Below the pieces are notes generated by a model. It had not been told where the DNA came from. It searched no databases and saw only the letters and a program-made list of their open reading frames with translations. DNA of 46,914 nucleotides from a virus, in IMG/VR virus record IMGVR_UViG_3300032277_000009, positions 1 to 46,914 of that record; one strand, 5' to 3'. A program made the position numbers and the translations under genes. Below are positions 2,715-23,400 of this stretch, in pieces; position 1 is the stretch's first letter, and each line of letters opens with the position of its first letter.

Positions 2715-4456
2715 TGCCCGCCACGCTCACCCAGAAGCACGCGGAACATACGCGTGATCCTCGCCCGCTGCCGACACGCCAGCAGGAGCGGCTGCAGCAA
2801 CTCAAGAACGAATACAACCAAGGTTGGCGTTCGCATCACGAGTTGCTGTTCGAGAACTTCCTGCCGTTCGGCGGGCGCTTCTTCGTCGACGATCGCAACG
2901 TCGGCGACCGCCGCCACGGCACGATCATCGACAGCACGCCACTGCACTCAGTGCGCACGCTCGCTGCCGGCCTCATGTCGGGCGCGACGTCGCCGGCACG
3001 TGTGTGGTTCCGTCTGCGCTTGAAGCAAGCCGAGCTGAACGAAGACCCGGCTGTGCAAGCGTGGCTCAGCGCGGCGAACGAGATCATGCTCGCGTGGATC
3101 GCGAATTCGAATCTCTACCACGAGCTACACCGCGGTTACGAAGAGATGGCCGTGTGTGGCACGTCGATCATCGTCCTGTTGCCGGACGATGAATCGGTGT
3201 TCCACGCCTACGGCGCAACGGCCGGCCAATACTTCTTGGACGCCGACGCGCGCGGCAAGATCAACACGTGCTACCGCGAGTTTCAACTCACCGTCGCGCA
3301 GGTCGTGCGTGAGTTCGGCTTCGACAACTGCCCTGGCTGGGTCAAGCGCGCGTTCAACGACGAAGAGTTCGGCACCGAAGTGCACGTGTGCCATGCGATC
3401 GAACCGAACGATGACCGCTACGTCGAAGGGTCAGCGCTCAAAGAGCAACTTCGATTCCGCTCGACATACTTCGTGTGGGGCGAGACCGAGAAAGAGAACG
3501 ACGTTGGCGGCCAGTTTCTGCGCGACGGCGGCTTCGATGAGTTCCCAGTGTTGGCGTTCCGCTGGAACGTTAGCGGCGGGGATATTTACGGGAACTCGCC
3601 CGGGATGGAATCGCTCGGGGATGCGATCCAGTTGCAGCACGAGCAGGAACGCAAGAGCGAGAACATCGACTTGCAGACGCGCCCGCCGTTGCAGGTGCCG
3701 CCATCGCTGAAGCACCACGAGGTCGACGGCGAAGCTGGGGGCATCACCACGGTGCCGAACGGTGGCCGTGAGTCGGGCATCCGCACGTTGTTCGAGACGC
3801 GTCTGCAGCTCGACCACTTGCGCGAAGACATCGAAGACGTGCGCATGCGCATCCGTCGCACGATGTTCGTCGACTTGTTCATCATGCTGCAGCAGATCGA
3901 TAAGACGATGACTGCACGTGAGGTGATACAGCGGCAAGAAGAGAAGCTGCTCATGCTCGGCCCGATGCTGGAGCGCCTGTTCGACGACGGGTTGAAGCCG
4001 CTGATCGACTTGATCTTTTACTACCTGGCCGAAGCGGGCATGTTCCCGCCTCCGCCGGAGCAGCTCGCTACCGCAGAGCTTGACGTGCAGTTCGTGTCGC
4101 CGCTCGCGCAGGCGCAGCGCGGTATCGGCATCAACGCCATCGACCGCTTCTTGCAGACCATCGGTGCTCTTGGCAGCTTGAAGCCGAACGCGCTCGACGT
4201 GCTTGACGAAGACGAGACGGCACGCCATTACGCCGACATCCTCGGCATCGATCCGGACTTGCTCAAGGATCCCGAGGTCATCGCACGCATCCGCGCCGAT
4301 CGCGCGAAGCAACAGGCTGCGCTTGAGCAGGCCGACGCGCTGCAGAAGGTTACAGGAGCGCAGAAGAACGTGGCTGATGCTGCCGCCGCAGCGCCAGTCG
4401 ACGCCATCACGCAAGCCACCGGCTACAGCAACCCGAACGCGGCGGTCGGAGTGTGA
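2714..4456 (+). CDS. Portal (head-to-tail connector) protein, T7 gp8-like class
   Basis: 580 aa in the position after TerL. Shows IIDSTPLHSVRTLAAGLMSGATSPARVWFRLRL and GNSPGMESLGDAIQLQHEQERKSENIDLQTRPPLQVP, typical of podovirus connector proteins. TAATG overlap with the upstream gene. Confidence 0.85.
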   Translation: MPATLTQKHAEHTRDPRPLPTRQQERLQQLKNEYNQGWRSHHELLFENFLPFGGRFFVDDRNVGDRRHGTIIDSTPLHSVRTLAAGLMSGATSPARVWFRLRLKQAELNEDPAVQAWLSAANEIMLAWIANSNLYHELHRGYEEMAVCGTSIIVLLPDDESVFHAYGATAGQYFLDADARGKINTCYREFQLTVAQVVREFGFDNCPGWVKRAFNDEEFGTEVHVCHAIEPNDDRYVEGSALKEQLRFRSTYFVWGETEKENDVGGQFLRDGGFDEFPVLAFRWNVSGGDIYGNSPGMESLGDAIQLQHEQERKSENIDLQTRPPLQVPPSLKHHEVDGEAGGITTVPNGGRESGIRTLFETRLQLDHLREDIEDVRMRIRRTMFVDLFIMLQQIDKTMTAREVIQRQEEKLLMLGPMLERLFDDGLKPLIDLIFYYLAEAGMFPPPPEQLATAELDVQFVSPLAQAQRGIGINAIDRFLQTIGALGSLKPNALDVLDEDETARHYADILGIDPDLLKDPEVIARIRADRAKQQAALEQADALQKVTGAQKNVADAAAAAPVDAITQATGYSNPNAAVGV

Positions 4457-4458
4457 GC

Positions 4459-5724
4459 ATGCACGATCTAGCGCTAGAGCAGCTCCGCGGCGACTACCTT
4501 CACAGGTTTGATCGTTTACGGAACGACGCCCGGCGTGCGCAGCGCACACTGCAGGCGACGGACGCGTCGAAGGAAGATGCGGTCGATCAAGTCGTTCGCG
4601 TCACAGCACCTGGACACTTCGGGGCGCTTACGAATGGGGTCTACACGTTGGCTGCAGGCACGACGTATCTTGTCGTGACCGAGGTCGACTTAGGTGGCGC
4701 CCGGCTGGTGGCGTCCGCGAACACGGTAATCAGTGGCTACAGTTCTGAGAACTGCCGAATCAAGAGCACAGGGCTCACAGGGGTGGCGCTCCTTACGAGC
4801 ATCTACACGCTACCCCTGCTCCACATCACGATCGAGGCCGACGTGGCTCTCGATTTGGACGCGGTGGACAGCAACCAAGCGCTCGACTGGGACGGGGTCA
4901 ACTTCACCAACTGCGCGACGGTCGGCACGATCGCTAACTACGGGAACGTCATCTGGCGGGGTTGCGCGTTGCTGTCGTCTGCGAATCTCACGTTCGATGG
5001 TTCGATAGGGACTGTCGGTTTCGACGGGTGCTTGTTTGTCGGCATCGCGGGTCAGACGACGATTGACCTGCCGGCCACGTTCACCGCGACTCGTAGGTTC
5101 CGGGTCATCTACTCAGCTTTCGTTGTATTCGGGGGTGCTACAGGTATCGACGTGGACGTGAGTGCAACCATCCCCGTGGAGAGCTACATACTCGACACGG
5201 TGAACTTCAGCGGAGGTGCGACCTACACTGCCGGCGTCCCCTACAGCGACAACAAAGCGCTGTTCGTCAACAACAAGGGCATATCAAACTCCGCGTCGAT
5301 CGGCGTTATGACGATGACGGGTAACAGCACCGTGACCGCGGTTGCCGTCACCGACGTGGACTACAAGACTGAAGGTGTGACCACGCTCGACGCGGGTGTG
5401 AGCCAAAAGTTCACCATGCCGGTAGACAACCGGTTGACGTATGGCGGGGCGATCAACCGCGAGTTTCGCGTGACGGCGACGGTCACACTGACGTCAGCAA
5501 ACAACACCCAAGTCGGGGTGTCCTTCGCGAAGAATGGGTCGGTGGTTGCATCTAGCGAAGTGCTCACGACGACGGACGGTAACGGGCGCCACGAGAACAT
5601 CATGGCGCAGGCGGTTGTGCCGATGGCAGAGAACGACTACATCGAGGTGTGGGTCAAAAACGCGACCGACACCCGTGATATTACCGTGACCGACTTCAAC
5701 GTGGTGGTCGAGGCGCTCAACTGA
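4459..5724 (+). CDS. Beta-helix-like protein with a C-terminal jelly-roll-like domain (candidate receptor-binding protein or depolymerase)
   Basis: GGAG lies 7 nt upstream of the ATG at 4459 (a GTG at 4453 is also possible). Repetitive short beta-strand segments rich in G/T/V/N (VISGYSSENCRIKSTGLTGVALL..., NFTNCATVGTIANYGNVIWRGCALL...). C-terminus ENDYIEVWVKNATDTRDITVTDFNVVVEAL. GC is visibly lower than in the flanking genes. Confidence 0.6.
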   Translation: MHDLALEQLRGDYLHRFDRLRNDARRAQRTLQATDASKEDAVDQVVRVTAPGHFGALTNGVYTLAAGTTYLVVTEVDLGGARLVASANTVISGYSSENCRIKSTGLTGVALLTSIYTLPLLHITIEADVALDLDAVDSNQALDWDGVNFTNCATVGTIANYGNVIWRGCALLSSANLTFDGSIGTVGFDGCLFVGIAGQTTIDLPATFTATRRFRVIYSAFVVFGGATGIDVDVSATIPVESYILDTVNFSGGATYTAGVPYSDNKALFVNNKGISNSASIGVMTMTGNSTVTAVAVTDVDYKTEGVTTLDAGVSQKFTMPVDNRLTYGGAINREFRVTATVTLTSANNTQVGVSFAKNGSVVASSEVLTTTDGNGRHENIMAQAVVPMAENDYIEVWVKNATDTRDITVTDFNVVVEALN

Positions 5725-10116: not shown

Positions 10117-10138
10117 GCCTGACGGCTAGGTCTTGACC

Positions 10139-10158
10139 GCCGGGGCTTCGGCTCCGGC
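10139..10158 (+). promoter_or_regulatory. Stable hairpin with a UUCG tetraloop just after the capsid gene (attenuator or mRNA-stabiliser candidate)
   Basis: gccggggc-ttcg-gctccggc forms an 8-bp stem including one G-U pair. No U tract follows. Confidence 0.4.
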
Positions 10159-10186
10159 ACCAACAAACAACCAACCAAGGAACAAC

Positions 10187-11035
10187 ATGATCTCTGACGA
10201 TCTCACGCGGTTGTCCGGAACTCGATCGGTCTCAGCCGGCGTCGTTACCGAAACCCCGCAAGACATCGATCCTGCCGCCGCAGCGACTCCGCTGCTCAGC
10301 GAAAGCTGGATCGACATGGCTGACCGCAACAACCCGCTTCACGGCGGCGACCTTGCGAACGGCAAACTGTGCGGCGTCTTCACGATGAACGAAGAGTCGA
10401 TGCTCAGCGCCGGCAACTCGAACGCGACGGTGCGCTTCCAGCTCATCACGATGCCCCGCACCGTGGCGGCTGGCCAGGTGTTCACCGTCGACGCTACGGA
10501 CGACACCGTGGTCTGCAGCGGCGACTACTTGCCCAACGGCACGTTGGTCACCGTCGCGTCGACCCTGACGCTCCCCGCCGGCCTCGTCGCGGGCAACCAC
10601 CTCTTCGTCTACCGCGACGACACGGCGGCGATCGTGGCCAACCCGCTGACGACGTTCAAGCTGGCCGCGTCCCCCGACGGTGTTGACCGTGCGAGCCCGG
10701 ACGTGTCGACGGTGGTGAACATCACCACGGCAGGCACCGGCGTGCACACGATCACGCACGTGCCGGAAATCATCGCCGACTCCGGCGAGATCCCGCTGCA
10801 ACGTCTTCGCTTGTCGAACGTGCACACGACGACGCCCAACTCGGGCGCGAAGGCGGATCAAGTTCTGATCCGCTCTAACCCGCGCTACTCGGCTCGACCG
10901 CCGCTGCAGCGCTACCTGTTCGCACGCTACGTGGTCTCGCACGACCTCACCGGCGGCAAGTGCTTCTGTGACGTCGGCATTGGCGTGCCGGACAACCACA
11001 GCGTCGCCCACGCCAGCGGGTTCGAAGTCAAATGA
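10187..11035 (+). CDS. Virion structural protein (capsid decoration or tail-associated candidate) carrying one LPxGL...GTGxH repeat module
   Basis: AAGGAA lies 5 nt upstream of the ATG at 10187. The ORF-track start at 10133 would include the hairpin. Contains LPAGLVAGNHLFVY...TFKLAASPDG...ITTAGTGVHTITH. Confidence 0.6.
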   Translation: MISDDLTRLSGTRSVSAGVVTETPQDIDPAAAATPLLSESWIDMADRNNPLHGGDLANGKLCGVFTMNEESMLSAGNSNATVRFQLITMPRTVAAGQVFTVDATDDTVVCSGDYLPNGTLVTVASTLTLPAGLVAGNHLFVYRDDTAAIVANPLTTFKLAASPDGVDRASPDVSTVVNITTAGTGVHTITHVPEIIADSGEIPLQRLRLSNVHTTTPNSGAKADQVLIRSNPRYSARPPLQRYLFARYVVSHDLTGGKCFCDVGIGVPDNHSVAHASGFEVK

Positions 11036-11556: not shown

Positions 11557-14535
11557 ATGGGACGCACGCTGCTTCTGACGCTGCTCGGGGGCGGCGTGCT
11601 TTTCTTTACATCCTGCGACATCAACATGACCGCCATCGCTGTTCCCCTTCCGACCAAAGACGTGTTGATCAACCTTTCGCAGAGCAACGGGACGACCGTT
11701 GGTGACGCGAAGGGGTTCGAGGACGCAAACCCGCAGATCGCTCTGCGGAACCCGGTAGCCGTCGCGCTGTCGCGGCGCTTCAACCAAGGCTCCGCGCGCG
11801 ACGAGATCACGCTGCCCGACCCCGAGTTCGGTGATCACCGGGTGGTCAACTACCGCGGCAAGGGGTCGCCGACGGTGCGCTACCTGACGTTCTTCAACCC
11901 GACGTCGACGTGCTACGAACGCACGGGCGCGGCGGTGTCGATGCCGACGTATCCGGGCGAGTTCGAGGTCAGCGAGATCACGAACGGCACGACGTTCAAG
12001 ACGAAGATGATCTGGCAGGCTGACCCGACAGGGAAGGTCACGATCACGCGCAGGCGCACCGGTGTTGCCTACACCATCACTGCGTCGTCTCCGATCCCGG
12101 GCGTGTCGTTGACAGCCAACAAGTCGTTCGACCCGCCGCTTGAAGTGGGTGAGCGGTTCACGCACACAGTCGCGGCGATGGACGCCGGCAGCACGACGCA
12201 GGTGCGGTTCTACAACCAGTTCGGCGGGCACCACGATCTCGGCGGCACGTTCGAAGCGACGCTCAACGGCGTCGCCGCAGACTACCCGAACGCGTCGGTC
12301 GGCTCTTACACGCTGTCGGTGTGGGAGACTACGTTCGGCACCGGCACGGGCAAGGTGACGTGTCTCGAACACCCGCTCTATCTCGGCCGCCGCATCCGCT
12401 TCTTGCAACGCACGGGCACGCTGCCGGTCGAGCTGGCGGTGGCGACGGATTACTACATTGTGAGGCTCGACGCTGACGGCAAGAGCGCATACATCAGCGC
12501 CACGCCGGATGGCAGCGAAATCACGTTCTCGGCCGCGTCGGGCGACTTCCAGGTGGCGTTCTACCCGGACGGCCGCGACAGCACGATGGCGGGCATGAAC
12601 CTGCATTGCCTCACTGGCGCCAACGCTGGCGAGGTGCGCGCGATGGGCGACGTGACCCCGAACGCCGCCGGCACCGTGTGGACCGTCAACGTGACCGAAG
12701 CGTTCACGAACGCAGTCACGCAAGACGACACGTTCGAGATCCTCCCGCCCGATGTTGGCGGCGCACCCGTGCCGTTCGACAAGTGGGCCTACTTCCTGCC
12801 GGTGTGCCAACTCAACGGCCGCGAGCAAGGTCTGCCGGCGAAGAGCCCGGTCACGATCACAACGGGCACAGGCACGACGTCGTTCCTCGCGACCGACGGC
12901 AACTACCCAGCGATCGGAGCGACGGCGTTCTACAACGGCTGCCCCGTGCGCTTCTGGCGCAAGGTCTACAGCGACGCCGCCGGCTCAGCGTCTGGCGAAG
13001 TGTGGCCGACGGGGCTGACCGAAGGGGTGGAATACTTCGTCGTCAACTTCAACTCGACGACGGGTTCGTTCCAGGTCTCCGCAACCTACGACGGCACGCC
13101 GATCAGTCTGACCGGCACGACTGCGCAGATTCACTGGGTCACGTTCAGTGAGACGTCGCTGCACATCGACAACCCCGCACCGCCAGGGTTCAACTTCAAC
13201 AACCAGCGGTGTGTTCCGTTCACTTACAACCCGTATCGCGGTGCGACCAACGGCTTGACGCCGGATGTTGAACAACCGAAGGTCGCCTACCACTGGGGTT
13301 GGGCGCAACGCATCGCCGAACGCATCGGTCGGGATGTCTACGTCATCGACTTGGCTGTCGGCGGGTCGACGCTCAGCGAGGTTGTCGTTCCACCGACCAA
13401 CGCAAACGGCGGTATCGGCTGGTTCGACCCCGCGTCGATGAACCACTGGGCGCCAGGTGAAGCAGCGCTTCGCGCTAGGTTCTTGCGCGTGCTCGATGCC
13501 GCGGAGTTGGCCGCCACGCGCGAAGGCGTGCAACTGCGCATCCGCGGCGTGTGCTTCCCGCAAGGTGAGTCTGATTCGGTGACCGTCGACCGCGCAGAAC
13601 GCTACATGGGCAACTCGCTCAGGTTCAAAGCGTTCGTCCGAGCCGAGCTGAAGAAGCGCGGGCTGTGGGACGGCGAAGCAGACGAGCTGCCCTTCTTGCA
13701 CCCTCAGATCCGCACGAGCACGACCGGCCAATGGCCGCAGTCGGCGACGGTCAACAAGTCGATCATCAAGCTGGCGAACGCCGACCCGTTCAGTCGCACG
13801 TGGAACACCGACGCTTACACTCTGTTCGACGAGGTGCACTACGCGGGCGTGTCGCTCGACACCATGGCAAGGTCGGCCGCGGCCAACCTGTTCGACTACC
13901 TCGACGGCGACGACGGCAACGTGCTGCGCATCTGCAAGCTCGCGATGCGCATGGCCGGTGAATCGAGCGTGTTCGACTCGGTGTATCCACCAGACGCGGA
14001 CAGCAAGGAAGCCGAGTTGGCTGCGGCGTTCTACCCCGAGGCGCGCGAGCACATGCTCGATCGCCACGCGTGGGACTTCGCAGTGTTCACCGAGTTGCTC
14101 GAAGAGGCATCGGCCAACGAGCGCACGCACGACTGGCGCCACGCTTACGAGCTGCCGCTGAACCTCCGCGGCGTGATCGGGCTCGGCGAAGATGAAATGT
14201 CCGCGTTCGACATGAAGGCGGTGAAGATCAAACACTCGATCGAGTTGCGGTCCGACTCGACGCGCGTGCTCTACGCGAACCAATCGCCCGACCTCTACAT
14301 CCGATACAAGCTCAACAAGGTCGACCCATCCAAGTTCAGCGCCGCGTTCATCAACGCATGCGCGGCCTACATGGCGTCGATGGTTGTGCGCACGACGATG
14401 AAGGGGGAAGAAGGTATCAAGGCCGGCGCCGCTCTTGAGAAGCGCGCCTACGGCATGTTCAAGGACGCGGCGTCGGTCGACGCCCGCCACACGCGAGACA
14501 CTTCCCAATCGCAGCAAATCGGCTGGCGTCGATGA
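11557..14535 (+). CDS. Tail adaptor (T7 gp11-like tubular protein A) domain at the C-terminus, fused to a large N-terminal SGNH/SASA-like esterase region with inserted repeat domains
   Basis: 992 aa. AAGGAAG lies upstream of the ATG. Esterase-like blocks: LINLSQSNG (aa ~38-45), IDLAVGGSTL (~aa 597-606), CFPQGESDS (~aa 667-675), FDEVHYAG (~aa 757-764). The C-terminal ~200 aa (RICKLAMRMAGE...HAWDFAV...FINACAAYMAS...) follow the gp11 adaptor pattern. The next gene is nozzle-like. Confidence 0.65.
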   Translation: MGRTLLLTLLGGGVLFFTSCDINMTAIAVPLPTKDVLINLSQSNGTTVGDAKGFEDANPQIALRNPVAVALSRRFNQGSARDEITLPDPEFGDHRVVNYRGKGSPTVRYLTFFNPTSTCYERTGAAVSMPTYPGEFEVSEITNGTTFKTKMIWQADPTGKVTITRRRTGVAYTITASSPIPGVSLTANKSFDPPLEVGERFTHTVAAMDAGSTTQVRFYNQFGGHHDLGGTFEATLNGVAADYPNASVGSYTLSVWETTFGTGTGKVTCLEHPLYLGRRIRFLQRTGTLPVELAVATDYYIVRLDADGKSAYISATPDGSEITFSAASGDFQVAFYPDGRDSTMAGMNLHCLTGANAGEVRAMGDVTPNAAGTVWTVNVTEAFTNAVTQDDTFEILPPDVGGAPVPFDKWAYFLPVCQLNGREQGLPAKSPVTITTGTGTTSFLATDGNYPAIGATAFYNGCPVRFWRKVYSDAAGSASGEVWPTGLTEGVEYFVVNFNSTTGSFQVSATYDGTPISLTGTTAQIHWVTFSETSLHIDNPAPPGFNFNNQRCVPFTYNPYRGATNGLTPDVEQPKVAYHWGWAQRIAERIGRDVYVIDLAVGGSTLSEVVVPPTNANGGIGWFDPASMNHWAPGEAALRARFLRVLDAAELAATREGVQLRIRGVCFPQGESDSVTVDRAERYMGNSLRFKAFVRAELKKRGLWDGEADELPFLHPQIRTSTTGQWPQSATVNKSIIKLANADPFSRTWNTDAYTLFDEVHYAGVSLDTMARSAAANLFDYLDGDDGNVLRICKLAMRMAGESSVFDSVYPPDADSKEAELAAAFYPEAREHMLDRHAWDFAVFTELLEEASANERTHDWRHAYELPLNLRGVIGLGEDEMSAFDMKAVKIKHSIELRSDSTRVLYANQSPDLYIRYKLNKVDPSKFSAAFINACAAYMASMVVRTTMKGEEGIKAGAALEKRAYGMFKDAASVDARHTRDTSQSQQIGWRR

Positions 14536-17500
14536 GAACACGCAAACACCAGTATTCGTTCGCCGGTGGCGAAGTCAGCCCGGAGTTCTTCGGGCGCGGC
14601 GACGCGGTGCAGTTCCAGACCGGCCTGGCCGCGGCACGCAACGTGGTCGTCAAGCCGCAAGGCTCTGCACGGACACGCCCCGGCGGCGAGTTCGTTGCCC
14701 GCAGTTTCCGCCAAGGCACAGCGGCGCAGTTGATGTCGTTCACTTACGACATCGACCAAGCGTATGCGATCGAGATCGGGGCGCAGGTGTTCCGGTTCCA
14801 TGCCGCAGGCGCAACGTTGAAGTGGGCCACACCTGTTGACGTTGGGGAGCTAGGGGGTGTCGATACTCTCGACATCGTCTCGCACGTGAACGGCATCCTG
14901 ATCACTGCCGGGCCTCACGGGCTCACGAGCGGCGACGAGGTGCGCGTCACGGTCGAAGCCGTCGGCTCGTTGCCCGGCGGTCTTGCGTCCTTCACCGACT
15001 ACAAGGTGACGGTGCTCGACTCGCGTCGGTTGCAGTTCAGCCTGTCGGCGAGTTACCCAACGCTGATCACGATCGGCCCCGGCTACGGCTCGGGGTTCAT
15101 GCGGATCTTCAAGACGAGCGAACTGCCGCGTGTTTACGTCGAGGCCGAGAACTTCGCGCCGGGCGACGTCAACACGACGTCGGAAGTCATCTCGATCGCC
15201 AACCACCTGTTCCAAGATGGCGACGAGTTCCGCTTCGGCACGAGCGGCACGCTGCCGGCGCCGTTGGTGGCGGGCACCAGCTACTTCGCGGTCAACGTTG
15301 TGGCGGGCGTCTCGTTCCAGGTCTCCGAGACTTCGGGCGGCGCAGCGATCAACCTCACGACGACCGGGACGGGCACACACAACGTCAGCTACCGCTACAA
15401 GCAAGGCGACCTCGCGTTTGTCCCGGTGAACGGCGGACTGTTCAACGCCGGTGAAGTCGTCTACTGCCAGCGTGACAACGACTCTGATTTCCTCTACCCG
15501 AACACCGCGGGCGACTGGTATCTGCAGCCATACGACGGCGCGCTGACTGTCCCGACGCTCTACACCGCGGTGCAGGTCTTCGACCTCAACTGGGATCAAG
15601 CTGGTGACGTGATCTCTCTCGTGCACCCGGAACACCCGGAGCGAGAGTTGCGCCGTCTGTCGAGCTTGAAGTGGGTCGTTGTCGACATCACCACGGGCGC
15701 CACGCTCACTGCTCCCGTGCCGAGCGTGACAGAGGCCTACGGCGAGACGATCAAGTCGTTGAGCTACCAGGCGAAAGGTGGCGTGTCTGGCGAGCCTATC
15801 CTGATGAACACCGACGAGTCGGTGCCAGGAGTGCAGACGGGCACCGCGTTGCTGGTCACGGTGAGCGGGCTCGGTAGTGTCCCCCAAGGGTCGACCGTCA
15901 TCGTCAACGAGGTGATCGCCGGTGGGCCGCCCTACAAGTTCGGCATCCGCGAACTTGGAGGGGACGTGATCACGTCGACCGCCACAACCCCGACGGCGCT
16001 TACGATCGAGTTCGCGTTCACCGATCTGATCGCGGACACCAACGACTACAAGGTATCCGCTGTTGACGGGGCGGGCATCGAGTCGGTGTCGGCAGCCACC
16101 GGAGCGGTCACTAACAACCTGGCGAACCCCGGCGCGTCGAACACGGTGTCGTGGGCGGCGATCGCGGGCGCGGTCCGCTATCGCGTTTACAAGAAGTCAT
16201 CCGGAACAGGCCTCTACGGTTTGGTCGGCGAGACCGACTCACTCTCGTTCACCGACTCTGACATCGCGGCCGACCTAACGAACACGACACCGGTCCCCGA
16301 CACCGACATCAGCAACGCCGCGAACTACTCGCGCGCCACCGCGCGCTTTGAACAGCGGCGGTGCTTCGCCGGCAGCGACCTGTTCCCGCGCCGAATGTTC
16401 ATGTCGCGCAACGGCACCGAGAACGACTTCAGCTCCCGCATCCCGGTGTTGGACGACGACCGGATTTCGATCGAGGTCGCGGCCCGCGAAGCGCACGTCA
16501 TCCGACACATCGTGCCGCTCAACGATCTGGTTTTGCTGACTCAGCTCGGCGAGTGGCGTGTGTTCGCGATCAACAGCGACGCGATCACTCCGACGACGGT
16601 GGCGGTTCGCCCGCAGAGCTACATCGGGGCGTCGACAGTCCGCCCCCTTGTGATCAACAACTCGATGCTCTTTTGCGCGGCCCGGGGCGGACACGTCCGA
16701 GAAATGGGGTTTCAGGCTACACGCCAGGGTTTTGTGACAGGCGATGTGTCACTCCGGGCCGCGCATCTTTTCGACGGCTACGAGATCAAGAGTTCGGCCT
16801 ACCAGAAGGCGCCGGTGCCGATCTGTTGGTTCGTCTCGACGAGCGGGCGTCTGCTCGGCTTTACCTACGTGCCTGAAGAGCGCATCGGCGCGTGGCACCG
16901 CCACGACACAGAAGGCGGCTCGTTCGAGTCGGTGTGCGTCATCCCCGAAGGCGGTGAAGATCGAATTTACGTGACCACGCAGCGCACCGTCGAAGGTGTC
17001 GTTGTGCGGAACGTCGAACGGTTGGCCGCGCTCAACCCGACCGCGCCGCTCGACTCGCCGAGTCTCGACGACTCGCGACGCTACGACGGCGCGGGCGCCG
17101 GCACCGTGACCGTGTCCGGCGGGGCGTTCGCAGGGCAGACCGTGACGGTGACCACCAGCGCCACGACGGCGTTCTCGATCTTCGACGTGGGCAAGCGGCT
17201 CTACATGGGCGCGAACGACACGGCGGTCGAGATCACCGAGTTCGTGACTCAGAACTCGGTCAAGGGTGTGCTCGTCAGCGACCTACCGACGACGGATCGC
17301 AACACGGCCTTGTCGCCGTGGGCGTTCGGCGTCAAGACGATCGGCGGCCTCAGCGAACTCGAAGGGGCGTCGGTGTCCATCGTGCGCAGCGACAGCTCGG
17401 ACGGCCTCGTGACGGTCGAGCAGAACGTGACGGTCACCAACGGTCAGGTAGAGCTGAGCGGCTGGGCGACCATCGCGGACGTCGGCCGCCAATACACACC

Positions 17501-17801
17501 GGAGCAGGAGTTGCTGCCGGTGACGATGCAGATGGACTCCCTCGGCTACGGGCGGGGCAAGGCGCTCAACCACGCGTGGGTCCGCACGTATGAATCCGCG
17601 GGCCTGTCGATCGGCGCGAAGGGCGAAGACACAGTGTTCAAGGTGCCCGACTTGCACGTGCCTGGCGGCCTCGTCACGCAGGAGTCGCGCGCCATCGTGT
17701 CGAACAAATGGGACCCTGACGCGCAGTTGTTGGTTCGACAGACGCTGCCGCTGCCCGCTACCATCGTGTCAGTAACTCTTGAAGTGAGCGTAGCCGAATG
17801 A
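14532..17801 (+). CDS. Tail nozzle / tubular protein B (T7 gp12-like)
   Basis: 1089 aa with ATGA overlap. N-terminus FAGGEVSPEFFGRGDAVQFQTGLAAARNVVVKPQGSARTRPGGEFV is typical of this family. Carries two LPxGL...GTGxH repeat modules. Confidence 0.75.
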   Translation: MRTRKHQYSFAGGEVSPEFFGRGDAVQFQTGLAAARNVVVKPQGSARTRPGGEFVARSFRQGTAAQLMSFTYDIDQAYAIEIGAQVFRFHAAGATLKWATPVDVGELGGVDTLDIVSHVNGILITAGPHGLTSGDEVRVTVEAVGSLPGGLASFTDYKVTVLDSRRLQFSLSASYPTLITIGPGYGSGFMRIFKTSELPRVYVEAENFAPGDVNTTSEVISIANHLFQDGDEFRFGTSGTLPAPLVAGTSYFAVNVVAGVSFQVSETSGGAAINLTTTGTGTHNVSYRYKQGDLAFVPVNGGLFNAGEVVYCQRDNDSDFLYPNTAGDWYLQPYDGALTVPTLYTAVQVFDLNWDQAGDVISLVHPEHPERELRRLSSLKWVVVDITTGATLTAPVPSVTEAYGETIKSLSYQAKGGVSGEPILMNTDESVPGVQTGTALLVTVSGLGSVPQGSTVIVNEVIAGGPPYKFGIRELGGDVITSTATTPTALTIEFAFTDLIADTNDYKVSAVDGAGIESVSAATGAVTNNLANPGASNTVSWAAIAGAVRYRVYKKSSGTGLYGLVGETDSLSFTDSDIAADLTNTTPVPDTDISNAANYSRATARFEQRRCFAGSDLFPRRMFMSRNGTENDFSSRIPVLDDDRISIEVAAREAHVIRHIVPLNDLVLLTQLGEWRVFAINSDAITPTTVAVRPQSYIGASTVRPLVINNSMLFCAARGGHVREMGFQATRQGFVTGDVSLRAAHLFDGYEIKSSAYQKAPVPICWFVSTSGRLLGFTYVPEERIGAWHRHDTEGGSFESVCVIPEGGEDRIYVTTQRTVEGVVVRNVERLAALNPTAPLDSPSLDDSRRYDGAGAGTVTVSGGAFAGQTVTVTTSATTAFSIFDVGKRLYMGANDTAVEITEFVTQNSVKGVLVSDLPTTDRNTALSPWAFGVKTIGGLSELEGASVSIVRSDSSDGLVTVEQNVTVTNGQVELSGWATIADVGRQYTPEQELLPVTMQMDSLGYGRGKALNHAWVRTYESAGLSIGAKGEDTVFKVPDLHVPGGLVTQESRAIVSNKWDPDAQLLVRQTLPLPATIVSVTLEVSVAE

Positions 17802-18436: not shown

Positions 18437-20484
18437 TGCCTATCCGTGTCCCAGGAGTCGACGGCCGCCCCGTCTCACAGAACCCCGTGCAAGCCGCACC
18501 CGCGCCGGCACTCAACCAAGGTCTGGCGATCGTGGGTGCGCAGTTGCAGAACGCTGGCAACACCGTGCGCCGCGAGGGTGCGCAGGCGATGCGTGTCGGG
18601 CAGCAGTTCATCGACAGCGCGAACGATGCGCGCAGCTCCCAGCAGGCAACGCTGCACGGCGACGCGCTCGACAAGCTCGTGCGCGACTACCAACAGAGTC
18701 TCGCCGCCGATGCACACGACGGCTACGAGCCGCTGAACAAAGAGATCAAGAAGCTGCGCGATCGCTTCTCCGGCAAGCTCGACAACTCGCAGCAAGCGGT
18801 GCTCTACAAGACCAAGGTCGACGCGCAGATCCGTCGGGCGCGCGGCACGGTCGACCGCCACTTCGCGCAGCAAACGCGAGCGTGGGACATCGAGCAGACT
18901 GAGGTCACGCTCAACCGCTACGCGCAGGACTACCAAGAAGCCGCGCTGTTGGGTGACGAGTTCGACGACGAGCGCATGGCGCGCATGACCGTGGCGCGCG
19001 GCGTCATGGAGAAGCTGTTCGACCGACTCGCCGAGATGTCAGGCATGGACCCGAAGACCGCGGCCGAGCAGAAGAAGCAACGTCTCGCCCGCCTGCACAG
19101 CCGCACGCTGGCGGTGTTGTCCGATCAGTCGGCAGAGCAAGCGTCTGACTACCTCGACACGTTCGGCGACGAGATGGACGTTGCGACGCGCACCAAGGCG
19201 AAGGCGCAAGTCGAAGCAGCGACGCTGCAAGACAAGGCGCTCGCACGCATGCGCAAGATGATGGAAAGCGCCGGCCCGAAGGCGACACCCGCGCAGCGCT
19301 TCCAATCCGTGGTCGAGCAGGCCGCGAAGATCACCGACGCCGGCGAGTTCCAAGCCGTGATGTCGATGGCGGGCGCTGAGTATGCCCGGGCGCAGCGCGT
19401 GACGAACGCGCAGCAGAACGAGCTGGTCGACGAGGTCGAGAAGATCGTCTACGCCGAAGGTGGCGAGTTCACGACGTTCTACGACCTGCCGGCGACGATG
19501 CAGCAGCGGCTGCGCGATGAAGGCTTGGTCGACGAGGTGCAAGCCGTCATCGGCCAGCGTGACCGCGTGTCGCAAGAGATGGTCGTGCAGCAGGCGATTC
19601 GCAACCCGGGCGCGTTCCGTGGCCGCGACTACCAAGAGTTCAAGCGCACGCACAAGCCGCGCTTGTCGAAGGGCGACTACGCGACCGTTGAGTCGATCTT
19701 CTTCAGCGTCAACCCCGAGCAGGCGCCGCCGGGAACACCGGTCGCTTCGATCCTCGACGCGAGCGATCTGTTCAACCAAGAGATGGATTTGTCGGGGAAG
19801 ACGAAAGAGGCGCTGGAAGGAAACCCCGATCTGCAGCGCCGCGCACAGAATCTACGCTTTGCGTATCAACGTTTGATCGAATCCGGCGGCATCACCAAAG
19901 AGACGCCCATCGACATGAAGCGGAAGCAGATCCAAGCGCTGTTTCGGCAGGATGCGTCCGTCCCCGGCATCCTCGGGTTCGGCGGTGAGAAGGTGTCGAT
20001 CCACGAGATGGCCGAAGGTGCTGAGATCACCGTTGCTACTCGTGACGGCCGAGTGCGCCAATCGCGCGTCGGTGCCGTGCCGCCGCTGGTCGCGTCCGAA
20101 CTCCAGGTCAGCATGCAACGGTTGTTCAAAAACAAACGGCAACCTACGGAGCACGAGATCCAACAGGCGTGGTTCGAGCTGGACCAACCTAAGTCGGCCA
20201 AGCTGGCGCGCGAACGGTGGGCCAATCAGAGTTTCGTTATGAAGGGCATCGTGCAGTCGTCGCTGGACCGGGAGAAACCCACCGACGAGTTGATGGTCGA
20301 CATGGACCCGTCGGTCCGTTCACGGGTCGACCAGCTCTTCGCGTCCGCAGGGTCGACGATGCAGACCTTCGGCGGGCCTCGATACCTGCTAGGGTTCCTG
20401 CCACCATCGCTCACCACGAAGCAGAAGGACGACGCGCGTCGATACCTCGATCTGCTCGTCAGCAGACAAGGCCGACGTAGATGA
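18436..20484 (+). CDS. Internal virion (ejection) protein, medium
   Basis: 682 aa with TAATG overlap. Mostly helical composition. Position as for T7 gp15-class proteins. Confidence 0.55.
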   Translation: MPIRVPGVDGRPVSQNPVQAAPAPALNQGLAIVGAQLQNAGNTVRREGAQAMRVGQQFIDSANDARSSQQATLHGDALDKLVRDYQQSLAADAHDGYEPLNKEIKKLRDRFSGKLDNSQQAVLYKTKVDAQIRRARGTVDRHFAQQTRAWDIEQTEVTLNRYAQDYQEAALLGDEFDDERMARMTVARGVMEKLFDRLAEMSGMDPKTAAEQKKQRLARLHSRTLAVLSDQSAEQASDYLDTFGDEMDVATRTKAKAQVEAATLQDKALARMRKMMESAGPKATPAQRFQSVVEQAAKITDAGEFQAVMSMAGAEYARAQRVTNAQQNELVDEVEKIVYAEGGEFTTFYDLPATMQQRLRDEGLVDEVQAVIGQRDRVSQEMVVQQAIRNPGAFRGRDYQEFKRTHKPRLSKGDYATVESIFFSVNPEQAPPGTPVASILDASDLFNQEMDLSGKTKEALEGNPDLQRRAQNLRFAYQRLIESGGITKETPIDMKRKQIQALFRQDASVPGILGFGGEKVSIHEMAEGAEITVATRDGRVRQSRVGAVPPLVASELQVSMQRLFKNKRQPTEHEIQQAWFELDQPKSAKLARERWANQSFVMKGIVQSSLDREKPTDELMVDMDPSVRSRVDQLFASAGSTMQTFGGPRYLLGFLPPSLTTKQKDDARRYLDLLVSRQGRRR

Positions 20485-23400
20485 CGAACTCTTTCCTACC
20501 GCCTCTCGACCCACAGAACCCGCAACCCGCATCGCCGGCGCAGGCGCCGCAAGAGACGGTCCTCTCTCAGCTTGTCCAGGGCTGGGAAGAGCAAGAGACG
20601 TCCGCGTTCATGCGTTCGTTCCAAGGCGTGATCGACACGGACCCCGACACGGCCGCCGAGATCAAGCAGATCAGCGCCGCAACGGGTCAGCCGCCGAACG
20701 CCATCGCGAGCGACATCAACTGGGCGCGGCGCTTGATGGCGCAGCGCGACATGCGCTTGTGGCTCGCGGTGAAGGCCAACCCGGTGATCCGGGAGCAGTT
20801 CGCCAACCCTGAGTTCGCGCAGATCGCGTGGGACGACTTGAAGAGCGTCAGCGCGTGGCAGGACATTTCCGGCAACTGGCGTGCAGGCCAACTCGTAGTC
20901 GAACGCGGCAAGATCGGCACGCGCATGATGTCCGGCATCGCGACGGGCGACGACCACAAGCGGCTCGAAGACATCGACCGCATGCTGCAGGAAGAGCTAC
21001 CCAGCGGTGATAGCTGGATCGGCGGCCCGGCGCGGATGTTCGGTCTGATGTCGCAGACGTTGCCGAAGGCGATCGCGCTCGGCTCCGGCACGGCGGCAAC
21101 CGCCGCGGCGCTAGGCAACCTCGGCCCGCAAGCCGCAGTGCCTGAAGAAGTGATCATCGTGCCGGCGGCGTTCGTCTTCGGCATGTCGTCCGGGATGGCG
21201 ATCCAAGCGTTCCAGATCGAAGGCGGCAACGCATACATCGAATACAAGCGCGCAGGGTTCGACGAAGGTCGCGCCCGCGTCGCGGCGCGCAGCGTCGGCA
21301 CAGTGAATGCCGTGCTCGAAGTCGCGGGCCTGAGCATCTTGGCTGCACCAGCGAAGAAGCTCGTGCAGGATCAGGTCAAGCGCAGGCTGGGTGAACGTCT
21401 CGCACGCATGACGCCGTTCGAAGCGTCGACCCGCGCGCTCAAGGGTATCGGGGCCGGTGTTGCTGGCGAGACCGGCCCCGAGGTGCTGCAAGAACTCAGC
21501 ACGATGATCGGCGAGGAAGTCGCCCGCGTCGGCACCGAGACGATGGTGAGCCGTTTGCAAGGTGGGTTCCGTGGCGAGTTCGACGCACCCGGCGGGGGTC
21601 GCATCGAGATCGACGGCCGCGGTCAGATCAGCGTCACGCCTGACGTGTTCAAGCGCGTTCTGGGCCTCGACACCGGCGGCGCCGATGTCGACGCGGTTGT
21701 GTTGGAAGGTGAGACGCGGCGCAAGTTCATAGAGCAATACGACAAGGCTCTGCCGCTGATCTCTGCGATCACCGAAGGTGAGGTCGGCGACCGACTCATC
21801 GACACCGCCATACAAACCGTCAAGGGTGTGTGGTTGCCGGGCGCGATCGGACCTTCGATCCAGCTCATTGGCGACTCGCACCGCATCACGTCGGCGCAAC
21901 GCATGGACAAGGTCTTCGAAGCCGCGACGCAAAACGTCGCCGAAGCCAAGGCCGCTGCACGCGACGCCGACGTGTTTTCCCAATTCATCGCCGGCACGCT
22001 CGACGACTCTGTGGCCGACACGGTCTACGTCTCGAAGGACCGCGTGCGCGAGAAGATGGAGAAGGCCGGCGTCACCGAAGAGCAACTCGAACGCGACGCC
22101 CCTGAGATCCATCGCCAGTTGCGCGAGCCGAACGAGCTGAACGACGACATCGAGGTCCCGATGGGCGACTGGCTCGGCCTCAAGATGAACCAGTCTGATA
22201 TCGGCCTAGCGCTGCGCGAAGACCTACGCATCGCCGGCAAAGATTCGATGTCGCTCGCCGAGGCAGAGCAGGCCGCGAAGACGATCGACGAAGACGTGAA
22301 GGCGCTGCGCGCCAAGCTCGACGAGGACGAAGCCGCGGCGTCGGTGTTCCGCGCGGAAGCCGAACAGATCGAGAAGCGCATTCGCACGGAGATCACCGCT
22401 GCCGGTGTGAACATCTCCGCGGAGCAAGCACGCATCAGTGCGCAGATGCACCGGCGCATTCTCGAAACGCTGTCGCTACGCGCCGGTGTGTCGCCCGCGC
22501 AGTTCGAAGAGCAGTTCGGGCAGATGCAGATCGTGCGCGGTCAAGGTGTCGACGCTGCGACGTTCGCGCAGACCGACGCGTTCAAGGCGTGGTTCGGCGA
22601 CTCGAAGGTTACGGAGATGGTTTCCGGGTCGTCCTCCCGTGACGCCGTGTTCGCCCCTCAAGTGGTCTACCACGCAACGACCGCCAGTTTCGAAGAGTTC
22701 GAGGCTGGTCGCGAGACGGTCAACTCAACGTTCTTCGGCGACGTCAAGACGGAGCGCCACGCCGTCTTCTTCACGCCGACACCAGAGCGTGCCGCCGAGT
22801 ATGTGACCTTCGATGGCGAAACGGATCCAGGTGCGCGCACGATCCCCGCATATCTGTCCGTGCAGAATCCGCTCGACTTCACCGAGCAGGTATCCGACGA
22901 CGTGCTCGGTCAGTTCGAAGCTGAAGGTATCAACCCGCGATGGCTGACGAAGTTCGAGTGGGGGCACCTTGACGGAGATGACGGGAGAGAGCTGGTCGCT
23001 GTGGCCCGGAAGCTCGGCTATGACGGGATCGTCTTCCTCGAAGAAGGCCCCGACTCAGGCAAGGACTTTGAGACTTGGGCGGTGTTCGACCCTGCGCAAA
23101 TCAAGTCGGTGCTCAACCGCGAGCCGACCAGCGACCCGAACATCCTGAAGCAAGACGGCGACGGAGAGCAAACGCCGCGCGGCACGTTCAACCCGCGCGA
23201 CTTCGTCACGAAGTTGTTCGACAAGGCCGACGCGTCGACCTTCTTCCACGAAGCGGCCCACTACTACCTTGAAGCGCTGCTGAACCTCGCGCGCAACGGC
23301 AAGGCGCCGACCGACGTGCTGGCCGACCTCGACGCGCTGGCGAAGTGGGGCGAGATGGAAGGCTGGGAAGACCTCGCCACCGCATCGATCGAAGACCGCC

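What the first reader, a model, noticed from the sequence alone, without database searches (positions are those of the whole stretch)
11557..14535. Tail adaptor (gp11-like) domain fused to an SGNH/SASA-type esterase whose catalytic blocks are split by a ~550-aa insertion
The C-terminal ~200 aa follow the T7 gp11 adaptor pattern and are followed by a gp12-like nozzle gene. Adaptor proteins are normally only about 200 aa, so the ~790-aa N-terminal extension is unusual.

The extension contains, in the correct order, the four SGNH/sialate-O-acetylesterase blocks:
- LSQSNG, aa ~40-45 (nt ~11674-11691);
- AVGGST, aa ~600 (nt ~13354-13375);
- PQGESD, aa ~669 (nt ~13558-13578);
- DEVH, aa ~758-761 (nt ~13828-13840).

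Block I is separated from block II by about 550 aa, which contain two copies of the LPxGL...GxGxH repeat module. An enzymatic, possibly receptor-deacetylating, domain built directly into the portal-proximal adaptor is an architecture I have not seen described.

The ORF also starts with a hydrophobic, signal-like stretch (LLLTLLGGGVLFFTSC). That is odd for a virion protein.
Basis: partly seen in the sequence, partly recalled or inferred. Interest (0 to 1): 0.66.

Follow-up and report, generated by a model that had tools for sequence, protein, structure and literature searches.

The report
Phage neck adaptor carrying an acetylesterase
This phage's head-to-tail adaptor protein carries a sugar-deacetylating enzyme domain interrupted by large inserted domains; the design recurs in hundreds of uncultured phages, is absent from deposited phage genomes, and probably lets the virion strip acetyl groups from the host's surface sugars.

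Summary

- **Adaptor:** aa 789-992 are a T7-gp11/BPP-1-Bbp14-type tail adaptor by sequence and fold. The gene lies in the adaptor slot, just before the nozzle gene.
- **Esterase:** aa 531-788 are the C-terminal two-thirds of a SASA/CE6 esterase. The missing block I is the N-terminal "SQSN".
- **Family:** an exhaustive profile search found 634 cluster representatives. GQSN sits near residue 11. Its distance to the rest of the esterase ranges from 70 to 1019 aa. Ser, QGE and D..H are kept in about 85-95 %.
- **Fusion partners:** almost all members are fused to a portal-proximal adaptor of one of three types (gp11-like, SU10-like, DnaT_2).
- **Novelty:** no deposited phage genome or searched paper shows this fusion.

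Corrections: there are at least two insertions, not one, and block II Gly is not conserved. The "signal peptide" lies upstream of the conserved start (M24, nt 11626) and overlaps a covarying terminator hairpin. It still obeys the lipobox rule in six related phages, which is unexplained. I could not measure whether block I reaches the active site in 3D.

Verdict: a new variant of known kinds.

The parts
11557..14535 (+). Longest ORF (992 aa plus stop) as given in the finding
   Evidence: full-length homologues
11626..14535 (+). Probable true CDS (969 aa), starting at M24 ('MTAIAVPLP...')
   Evidence: Homologues P0004, P0006, P0007, P0009 and P0010 start here, and P0011-13 start a few residues later. 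Across the family GQSN sits near residue 11. No locus has a Shine-Dalgarno sequence before this start.
11557..11625 (+). 23-codon in-frame leader, MGRTLLLTLLGGGVLFFTSC DIN. It is lipoprotein-signal-like, and AAGGAAG lies 5 nt upstream of the ATG.
   Evidence: The PROSITE-type lipobox rule is met in 6 of the 7 related loci that have a start codon.
11564..11609 (+). 15-bp GC-rich hairpin (11564-11599) plus U-tract (11600-11609): an intrinsic-terminator-like element between the capsid-side genes and the adaptor gene
   Evidence: dG -28.5 kcal/mol, z -6.1; 98 % of cells paired in 7 loci, 3 compensatory pairs. Unrelated hairpins sit at the same site in L002 and L004.
11674..11691 (+). SASA block I, LSQSNG. 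Q42 is the oxyanion Gln and S43 the putative nucleophile (codon 11683-11685).
   Evidence: PMC9487903
11875..11958 (+). Conserved core segment VRYLTFFNP...TYPG (aa 107-134), also present in short-insertion relatives
11959..12771 (+). Insertion 1 (aa 135-405): beta-rich domains, including repeat module copy 1 (aa 271-345, nt 12367-12591)
   Evidence: Largely absent from P0015 and P0091.
12784..12825 (+). Conserved core segment WAYFLPVCQLNGRE (aa 410-423)
12877..13146 (+). Insertion 2 (aa 441-530): repeat module copy 2
13147..13920 (+). C-terminal part of the SASA/CE6 esterase fold (aa 531-788): block II AVGGST (13354-13371), block III PQGESD (13558-13575), block V DEVH (13828-13839)
   Evidence: Pfam PF03629; Foldseek 2APJ E 1.9e-5, TM 0.57 on the target
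13921..14532 (+). T7 gp11 / BPP-1 Bbp14-type tail adaptor domain (aa 789-992)
14532..17801 (+). Nozzle (gp12-like) gene. Its start overlaps the adaptor stop (ATGA). It carries two copies of the same repeat module.

Best explanation
The gene encodes this BPP-1-like podophage's only tail adaptor. By homology the adaptor forms a 12-subunit ring that joins the portal to the nozzle.

The N-terminus of the adaptor is extended by about 765 aa. This extension is a SASA/CE6-type carbohydrate O-acetylesterase. Its first strand carries the nucleophile (Q42-S43). That strand is separated from the rest of the fold (block II about aa 600, QGE 669-671, D758/H761) by at least two inserted beta-rich regions. 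These regions contain a small repeat domain.

The virion would therefore carry about twelve esterase modules around its neck. The most likely role is to bind and de-O-acetylate an acetylated surface polysaccharide of the host (capsule, EPS or O-antigen) during adsorption. This would work like esterase tailspikes and like the haemagglutinin-esterases of animal viruses. The inserted domains would act as the sugar-binding part.

**Shown:** the domain identities, the conservation of the catalytic residues, the gene position, and the family-wide fusion to adaptors.
**Inferred:** the copy number, the 3D completion of the active site, the activity, the substrate, and the role in adsorption.

Translation most likely starts at nt 11626. 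The 23 codons before it overlie an intrinsic terminator. That terminator would lower transcription from the abundant capsid genes into the tail genes.
For: **Adaptor**
- PHROG 394, E 8.6e-21.
- 8ck1_E connector, E 2.7e-9.
- Foldseek hits to Carin-1, LME-1, KP32 TTPA and T7 gp11.
- Gene order matches BPP-1, where Bbp14 is 223 aa and is followed by the nozzle.

**Esterase**
- PF03629 scores above its cut-off in the window protein and in most homologues.
- Foldseek hits 2APJ, 1ZMB, 7KMM and SIAE.
- The SASA-defining Gln-Ser in block I and the (H)QGE in block III are both present and conserved together.
- D758 and H761 are invariant among the 12 close homologues.
- The N-terminal 31-residue profile returned only NanS block I from 177,635 PDB sequences, at E 0.72.
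- In the AF2 models the N-terminal strand followed by a helix starting at the Ser has pLDDT about 80.

**Family**
- 634 representatives at E <= 1e-3.
- Of 97 analysed, 70 are fused to a gp11-like adaptor, 10 to an SU10-like adaptor and 5 to DnaT_2. The block I to C-half spacing runs from 70 to 1019 aa.
- In locus L006 the fusion occupies the head-tail connector slot of a long-tailed phage.

**Precedents for SGNH folds interrupted by binding domains:** CE20 (PMC8245568), and HE/HEF and Ape1 (PMC9487903).

**Start and terminator:**
Against: - No coordinates were available, so the S43 to H761 proximity was never measured. Foldseek aligned only the C-half (about 210 columns) to 2APJ in both models.
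- Pfam does not align the N-terminal segment, and adding it raises the score by only about 1 bit.
- Block II Gly is poorly conserved (59 of 97). About 10 % of representatives, including the P0011 lineage (GEGN), lack the Ser. The module can therefore persist without catalysis.
- The models are of modest confidence (pLDDT 70 and 65).
- The inserted domains match no Pfam family, so sugar binding is a guess.
- A separate fibre-like gene exists (4453-5724, phrog_24754, E 7e-9). The adaptor extension therefore need not be the receptor-binding device.
- The substrate and the host are unknown.
Confidence: 0.6

Rival explanations
1. The esterase-like module is mainly structural or a lectin: a neck collar or decoration that binds sugars or stabilises the tail. 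Under this reading, catalysis is unimportant or lost in this protein.
For: - Block II Gly is variable, and about 10 % of representatives lack the Ser. The P0011 lineage (12 member sequences) has GEGN and no block II Gly, yet keeps the whole architecture.
- The Pfam score is only just above its cut-off.
- One relative (L009) has the gene broken at block III.
Against: - The window protein itself keeps Q42, S43, N44, G603, Q669-G670-E671, D758 and H761.
- These residues are kept in about 85-95 % of 97 representatives that are at most 50 % identical to each other. That is hard to explain without selection for catalysis.
Confidence: 0.15
2. The enzyme removes O-acetyl groups from peptidoglycan, like Ape1-type SGNH esterases. 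This would help the ejected lytic proteins cross the cell wall, rather than acting on a surface polysaccharide.
For: - SGNH enzymes include peptidoglycan O-acetylesterases and O-acetyltransferases; PatB appears among the weak Foldseek hits (PMC9487903).
- Podophages must breach peptidoglycan. The BPP-1 counterpart of the downstream 682-aa gene is a transglycosylase.
Against: - The signature is that of the SASA family (Gln-Ser plus QGE), not the Ape or GDSL-2 type.
- The module is fused to the portal-proximal adaptor, outside the particle and far from the tail tip. It is not among the ejected internal proteins.
- The same module is fused to connectors of long-tailed phages. In those phages the neck never approaches the cell wall.
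Confidence: 0.05
3. Two isoforms are made. Starting at ATG 11626 gives the cytoplasmic virion adaptor. Starting at ATG 11557 gives a form with a lipoprotein signal peptide. That form is exported and lipid-anchored, and it deacetylates the receptor polysaccharide of the infected cell. The effect would be superinfection exclusion, or protection of progeny from being trapped on debris.
For: - The leader meets the lipobox rule in 6 of the 7 related loci that have a start codon.
- Cys is kept through a TGC/TGT change. The -1 residue varies but is always A, G or S. Indels are in frame. An Arg lies at positions 2-4.
- A purine-rich SD-like run precedes ATG 11557.
- Simulated terminators read in frame meet the rule in only 0.4 % of cases.
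Against: - The same bases form a covarying terminator hairpin directly after ATG 11557. That hairpin should hinder initiation there.
- More distant relatives have no start codon (L002) or have in-frame stops (L004) in this leader.
- Most of the family starts about 10 residues before GQSN.
- The six loci share ancestry, so they are not independent observations.
- I know of no precedent for a lipidated tail adaptor.
Confidence: 0.12
4. The long ORF is an artefact: a sequencing or assembly fusion of a separate esterase gene with a 200-aa adaptor gene.
For: Cultured relatives have a stand-alone adaptor of about 200-220 aa. One relative (L009) has the gene in two pieces.
Against: - Twelve independent contigs from different samples carry the uninterrupted fusion.
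- 85 of the 97 family representatives analysed carry an adaptor-type C-terminal domain fused to the esterase.
- None of these loci has a second adaptor gene.
Confidence: 0.01

Closest known systems
SASA / CE6 carbohydrate O-acetylesterases (Pfam PF03629; E. coli NanS 3PT5, Arabidopsis At4g34215 2APJ, C. acetobutylicum 1ZMB)
   Same: - The fold of the C-terminal two-thirds matches (Foldseek).
- Block I GQSN-type motif with a Gln next to the Ser.
- Block III (H)QGE.
- Block V DxxH.
   Different: - Canonical enzymes are contiguous domains of about 230-330 aa. Here block I is about 560 aa upstream of block II, with at least two inserted regions.
- The protein is fused to a virion adaptor.
- The block III His is replaced by Pro.
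- Only a partial Pfam match (profile positions 94-212).
T7 gp11-type podophage tail adaptors (BPP-1 Bbp14, Carin-1 connector 8CK1_E, KP32 tail tubular protein A 5MU4, T7 gp11 6R21/7EY7)
   Same: - The sequence and fold of aa 789-992.
- The gene position between the capsid genes and the nozzle.
   Different: - Known adaptors are about 190-225 aa. This one has a roughly 765-aa enzymatic N-terminal extension.
- From my own knowledge: KP32 TTPA was reported to have polysaccharide-degrading activity within the adaptor fold itself, not through a fused esterase domain.
Esterase-bearing phage tailspikes (epsilon15 tailspike esterase domain, bioRxiv 10.64898/2026.07.31.742079; Moo19/B2 tailspikes, PMC11654681; G7C gp63.1 from my own knowledge)
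   Same: A virion-exposed SGNH-type esterase. In those tailspikes it acts on host surface polysaccharide during adsorption; here that role is presumed.
   Different: - Those enzymes sit on trimeric tailspikes that dock to the tail.
- Here the enzyme is part of the presumably 12-fold adaptor subunit itself, and it belongs to the SASA family.
Haemagglutinin-esterases (HE/HEF) of influenza C, coronaviruses and toroviruses
   Same: A virion surface protein whose SGNH esterase domain is non-contiguous in sequence, because a receptor-binding domain is inserted in it. It acts as a receptor-destroying O-acetylesterase (PMC9487903).
   Different: - No detectable sequence relationship.
- HE uses the classical Asn oxyanion hole, not the SASA Gln/QGE arrangement.
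- It belongs to eukaryotic enveloped viruses.
- A receptor-binding function of the inserts in the phage protein is unproven.
CE20 acetylesterases (XacXaeA / XAC1771, 7KMM)
   Same: An SGNH fold split into two halves by an inserted ancillary domain (PMC8245568). 7KMM is among the Foldseek hits.
   Different: - In CE20 the insertion is about 180 aa and lies between two roughly equal halves.
- Here only about 45 residues (the block I strand plus a helix) precede the first insertion, and the insertions total about 400 aa.
- CE20 enzymes are cellular and soluble.

Membership tests
SASA / CE6 esterase (PF03629) | Profile match above Pfam's gathering score | tested here: met
   27.7 bits against a cut-off of 24.8, aa 627-766, but only profile positions 94-212 of 226. 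Homologues score 21-44 bits.
SASA / CE6 esterase (PF03629) | Block I with the catalytic Ser preceded by the oxyanion Gln (GQSN) | tested here: met
   S-Q42-S43-N44 at aa 41-44. The family columns read G87 Q82 S81 N79 out of 91. The N-terminal profile hits NanS block I as the only PDB hit, at E 0.72. The feature is defined in PMC9487903.
SASA / CE6 esterase (PF03629) | Block III (H)QGE motif in place of the GxND Asn | tested here: met
   P-Q669-G670-E671-S-D673. Q, E and S are invariant in the 12 close homologues. The wider family reads Q84 G91 E89 D92 out of 97.
SASA / CE6 esterase (PF03629) | Block V DxxH | tested here: met
   D758-E-V-H761, invariant in the close homologues. D84 and H91 out of 97.
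SASA / CE6 esterase (PF03629) | Complete SGNH alpha/beta/alpha fold with block I Ser next to block V His | tested here: inconclusive
   The C-half matches 2APJ (E 1.9e-5, TM 0.57 on the target). The N-terminal strand is modelled confidently (pLDDT about 80).
SASA / CE6 esterase (PF03629) | O-acetylesterase activity | not testable with these tools
   Needs an enzyme assay.
T7 gp11-type tail adaptor | Sequence and fold similarity to solved adaptors | tested here: met
   phrog_394 at E 8.6e-21. 8ck1_E at E 2.7e-9, covering 185 of its 222 residues. Foldseek hits to 8ck1, 9efk, 8es4, 8vb4, 5mu4, 7ey7 and 6r21.
T7 gp11-type tail adaptor | Gene lies between the capsid module and the nozzle gene, and is the only adaptor in the genome | tested here: met
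   The gene order is identical to BPP-1 and to loci L001, L002 and L004. No other ORF in the structural module hit an adaptor family.
T7 gp11-type tail adaptor | Dodecameric ring bound to the portal in the virion | not testable with these tools
   Needs cryo-EM or virion proteomics.
Intrinsic (rho-independent) terminator | GC-rich hairpin immediately followed by a U-tract, conserved by structure | tested here: met
   15-bp stem at 11564-11599 followed by TTTTCTTT. dG -28.5 kcal/mol, z -6.1. 98 % of cells paired, 3 compensatory pairs, slid controls 34-54 %. Termination itself was not tested.
Bacterial lipoprotein signal peptide (SPII, PROSITE PS51257-type rule) | K/R in the first 7 residues, an uncharged hydrophobic run, then [LIVMFWSTAG]2-[LIVMFYSTAGCQ]-[AGS]-C with the Cys at position 15-35 | tested here: met
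   MGRTLLLTLLGGGVLFFTSC meets the rule, with Cys at position 20. Five related loci also meet it.
Bacterial lipoprotein signal peptide (SPII, PROSITE PS51257-type rule) | The leader is actually translated, exported and lipidated | not testable with these tools
   The family's conserved start is downstream of the leader. The leader overlaps a terminator hairpin.
Haemagglutinin-esterase (HE/HEF) | SGNH esterase domain interrupted by a receptor-binding lectin domain | tested here: inconclusive
   The interruption is shown. The inserted domains match no known family, and binding is untested. I use HE only as a functional analogy and do not claim membership.

The most novel reading that the evidence does not exclude
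The gene makes two products from two in-frame starts. The first is the virion adaptor-esterase, starting at nt 11626. The second is a minor longer form, starting at nt 11557. Its 20-residue lipoprotein signal peptide, encoded on top of the terminator hairpin, would send the same receptor-destroying esterase to the envelope of the infected cell. There it would strip the receptor, excluding superinfecting phages and keeping progeny from sticking to debris. The hairpin would set the ratio of the two forms.
Probability: 0.12. Interest if true: 0.8.

Novelty: new variant of a known kind. Interest (0 to 1): 0.6.

Why it matters
Tail adaptors are regarded as small, purely structural rings. If this reading is right, a large and so far undescribed group of phages has turned the adaptor subunit into an enzyme carrier. 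The group comprises 634 cluster representatives and includes both podophages and long-tailed phages.

This would place about twelve sugar-deacetylating modules at the neck. It extends the receptor-destroying-enzyme strategy to a new position on the particle. That strategy is already known from esterase tailspikes and from the haemagglutinin-esterases of animal viruses.

It also gives a natural series of one SGNH/SASA fold that tolerates insertions of 70 to about 1000 aa after its first strand. That series is useful for protein engineering and for annotation, because current profiles see only the C-terminal part and miss the nucleophile. These proteins are therefore labelled 'hypothetical' or only 'tail tubular protein A'.

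Tried and rejected
1. **Insertion-deleted construct.** I tried to fold alignment A4 to see whether the N-terminal strand completes the SASA fold. The same alignment against the PDB gave only a 39-residue block III match to 2APJ.
2. **Pfam on the N-terminal 66-71 aa alone.** No hit. The spliced sequence gained only 1.1 bits and no N-terminal profile coverage.
3. **Second AF2 model of a short-insertion relative (P0091).** The aim was to let Foldseek bridge the gap. The linker (aa 28-140) was modelled poorly, and 2APJ again aligned over about 211 columns only.
4. **Word-indexed profile search with the esterase region.** It returned only the same 14 proteins. The exhaustive search was needed to see the family.
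5. **Cultured phages.** tblastn with the window protein, P0016 and P0096 found only adaptor-domain matches or nothing.
6. **Literature.** The Xanthomonas PBR31, Peru-2 and PhiXacm4-11 papers have separate esterases or plain adaptors, not a fusion. One search was uninformative because of poorly chosen terms.
7. **'No separate tail fibre, so this must be the receptor-binding protein'.** Rejected: ORF 4453-5724 matches a tail-fibre PHROG.
8. **'The signal-like stretch is simply a terminator read in frame'.** Only partly accepted: simulated terminators meet the lipobox rule in 0.4 % of cases.
9. **Frameshift or fusion artefact.** Rejected.


Full report
**1. The observation**

The window holds an uninterrupted ORF at 11557-14535 on the + strand (992 aa, ATG start).

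The next gene, 14532-17801, overlaps the stop codon (ATGA). It is a nozzle protein: phrog_376 at E 1e-141, plus a weak Pfam Phage_nozzle hit.

The window looks like a whole podophage genome of about 47 kb with a BPP-1-like structural module. The order is:
- terminase
- a GNAT acetyltransferase
- a T7-type portal (PF12236)
- a fibre-like ORF
- Bbp19-like
- a protease/scaffold-like protein
- a GP7-type major capsid protein
- two ORFs of 300 and 166 aa
- this gene
- the nozzle
- a gp14-like protein
- a 682-aa protein
- a 2204-aa internal-protein-like giant

Replication genes follow on the other strand. The gene order equals that of BPP-1. There the adaptor Bbp14 is 223 aa and the nozzle 681 aa.

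**2. Not an artefact**

Twelve full-length homologues (963-1050 aa, 42-70 % identity) from independent metagenomic contigs show the same architecture. One of them is annotated in a Henriciella MAG. The loci I fetched have the same neighbours.

**3. The C-terminal domain is a tail adaptor**

- aa 789-984 match phrog_394 'tail protein' at E 8.6e-21.
- tblastn finds only this part in cultured phages: BPP-1 Bbp14, Caulobacter phages, and 'tail tubular protein A' genes.
- A family profile hits the Carin-1 connector 8ck1_E at E 2.7e-9.
- The AF2 model (pLDDT 70.4, pTM 0.59) matches Carin-1, LME-1, HRP29, PhiM1, KP32 TTPA and T7 gp11.
- I found no other adaptor gene in the module.

**4. The esterase**

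Pfam SASA (PF03629) matches aa 627-766 at 27.7 bits against a cut-off of 24.8. It covers only profile positions 94-212. The model matches the SASA/CE6 structures 2APJ (E 1.9e-5, TM 0.57 on the target) and 1ZMB. It also matches the CE20 esterase XAC1771 and mammalian SIAE.

The C-terminal part therefore has the fold, but it lacks the first strand with the nucleophile. The question is whether the N-terminal LSQSNG supplies it. The evidence is as follows.

(a) According to the SGNH review PMC9487903, SASA enzymes are set apart by two features. One is a Gln next to the block I Ser. The other is the block III (H)QGE motif, which positions that Gln in the oxyanion hole. Both are present here (Q42-S43 and Q669-G670-E671) and conserved.

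(b) Among the 12 close homologues, N44, Q669, E671, S672, D758 and H761 are invariant. S43 is present in 11 of 12.

(c) An exhaustive profile search with the esterase region found 634 cluster representatives at E <= 1e-3 and 78 at E <= 1e-30. In 97 of them the columns read:
- G87 Q82 S81 N79, out of 91 with a residue
- Q84 G91 E89 D92, out of 97
- D84 H91, out of 97

(d) In this family GQSN lies near residue 11. The distance to the start of the SASA C-half varies continuously from 70 to 1019 aa, with a median of 346.

(e) A 31-position profile of the N-terminal segment alone returned exactly one hit at E <= 10 from 177,635 distinct PDB sequences. That hit is E. coli NanS, aligned on its block I VLTVAGQSNAMAYG. 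The E-value is 0.72, so it is weak on its own, but it is the predicted target.

(f) In both AF2 models the N-terminal strand, followed by a helix that starts at the Ser, has pLDDT about 80. This is the SGNH arrangement.

I could not do the direct test. Model coordinates are not exposed, and Foldseek aligned only about 210 columns of the C-half. The active-site completion is therefore well supported but inferred.

**5. Anatomy of the 'insertion'**

Alignment with the shorter relatives P0015 (696 aa) and P0091 (575 aa) shows that several segments belong to the conserved core:
- VRYLTFFNP (aa 107-115)
- YPG (aa 132-134)
- WAYFLPxC..G (aa 410-421)
- NPAPPGFN (aa 539-546)

The window protein therefore has at least two large insertions, at roughly aa 135-405 and 424-538. 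Each contains one copy of a small module (H.L..G..VRF...GTLP.GL..GT.Y[YF]V...F.[LV]S.T..G..I.L...G.G.H). The same module occurs twice in the nozzle and once in ORF 10133-11035.

These regions are beta-rich in the model and match no Pfam family, even in the longest relatives. Block II Gly is variable in the family.

SGNH folds interrupted by ancillary or binding domains are known. Examples are CE20 (PMC8245568) and Ape1 and the viral haemagglutinin-esterases (PMC9487903).

**6. The fusion is the rule**

Of the 97 representatives, 70 end in the gp11-like adaptor domain. Ten end in a domain that Pfam calls SU10_adaptor (PF24175), and five in DnaT_2 (PF20557). Most of the remaining 12 are truncated.

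The DnaT_2 example P0015 sits after a GP7-type capsid gene and before a Phage_tube_2 gene. That is the head-tail connector slot of a long-tailed phage.

BFVD holds a 1084-aa protein of an uncultured virus (A0A516LTA4) that matches the whole model (E 3e-59, TM 0.53).

In contrast, none of the 50,697 deposited phage records matches the esterase part. None of the paper searches found such a fusion.

**7. Likely function**

By homology the adaptor is a 12-mer, so about twelve esterase modules would surround the neck. Carbohydrate O-acetylesterases on virions are known to act on host surface polysaccharides. Published examples are the epsilon15 tailspike esterase domain and the Moo19/B2 tailspikes (titles and abstracts). 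G7C gp63.1 is a further example from my own knowledge.

I therefore favour binding and de-O-acetylation of an acetylated capsule, EPS or O-antigen during adsorption or release, in the manner of HE (confidence 0.6).

About 10 % of representatives have lost the Ser, including the P0011 lineage. This suggests the module also has a non-catalytic binding or structural role.

A peptidoglycan target is unlikely because of the SASA signature and the position at the neck. A separate fibre-like gene (4453-5724) means the extension is not necessarily the primary receptor-binding protein.

**8. The 'signal peptide'**

Five homologues start at the residue equivalent to M24, and three more start a few residues later. 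Family-wide, GQSN is near residue 11. The conserved start is therefore ATG 11626.

The 23 codons before it contain a 15-bp hairpin (11564-11599) followed by TTTTCTTT. Its dG is -28.5 kcal/mol with z -6.1. In seven close loci 98 % of cells pair, three pairs show compensatory changes, and slid controls pair at 34-54 %. More distant loci have unrelated hairpins at the same site.

This is a terminator-like element between the capsid-side genes and the tail genes. It explains the Leu/Gly/Phe-rich translation.

It does not explain everything. In six loci the leader has an in-frame ATG preceded by a purine-rich run. It also has an Arg at positions 2-4 and an [AGS]-Cys that satisfies the lipobox rule. 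The Cys is kept through a TGC/TGT change, and the indels are in frame. Simulated terminators read in frame meet the rule in only 0.4 % of cases.

The loci share ancestry, and L002 and L004 lack a usable leader. I therefore give a real second, lipoprotein-type isoform about 12 %. It remains unexplained.

**9. Verdict**

The parts are known kinds: a SASA esterase, a gp11-type adaptor, and SGNH folds with inserted domains. What appears undescribed is their combination as a widespread, adaptor-borne, multiply interrupted esterase. I rate it a new variant of a known kind, with interest 0.6.

Noticed in passing
window 10133-11035, 12367-12591, 12877-13146, and 14532-17801 (nozzle aa ~120-290): The same small module (…G..VRF…GTLP.GL..GT.YFV…F.LS.T..G..I.L…G.G.H) occurs in three consecutive structural genes. 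Each of these genes is much longer than its BPP-1 counterpart: 300 vs 140 aa, 969 vs 223 aa, and 1089 vs 681 aa. The module matches no Pfam family.
   Followed up: partly
window 11557-11625: The 23-codon leader overlaps a covarying terminator hairpin. It also satisfies the lipoprotein-signal (lipobox) rule in six related phages. The conserved start at 11626 has no Shine-Dalgarno sequence in any locus.
   Followed up: yes
L009 3001-5975: In this relative the adaptor-esterase gene is split into 684-aa and 325-aa ORFs by a frameshift exactly at block III (…CFPKGSRTA… instead of CFPQGESD). This is either a pseudogene or an assembly error.
   Followed up: no
L004 / L005 (P0011, 1011 aa): A lineage seen on 10 contigs has GEGN instead of GQSN and no block II Gly, but keeps QGESD, D..H and the whole architecture. 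It is probably a catalytically dead, binding-only version.
   Followed up: partly
window 1915-2373: A GNAT acetyltransferase gene (PF13302/PF00583) lies between the terminase and portal genes. It is conserved at that place in L001 and L002. This is an unusual gene for a head module, and its target is unknown.
   Followed up: no
window 20481-27095: A 2204-aa gp16-position protein carries an ADP-ribosyltransferase domain (ART-PolyVal, aa 725-883, E 2e-15) and LPD22. It is a possible ejected effector.
   Followed up: no
window 4453-5724: A 423-aa ORF directly after the portal gene matches a tail-fibre PHROG (phrog_24754, E 7e-9). Its counterparts in L001 and L002 differ in length (301 and 197 aa), as expected for a host-range determinant.
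   Followed up: partly
P0096, P0121, P0015, P0020, P0037; locus L006 3144-5234: The same esterase module is fused to three different portal-proximal adaptor families: gp11-like, SU10_adaptor PF24175 and DnaT_2 PF20557. One example lies in a long-tailed phage. This implies repeated domain shuffling onto the neck position.
   Followed up: partly
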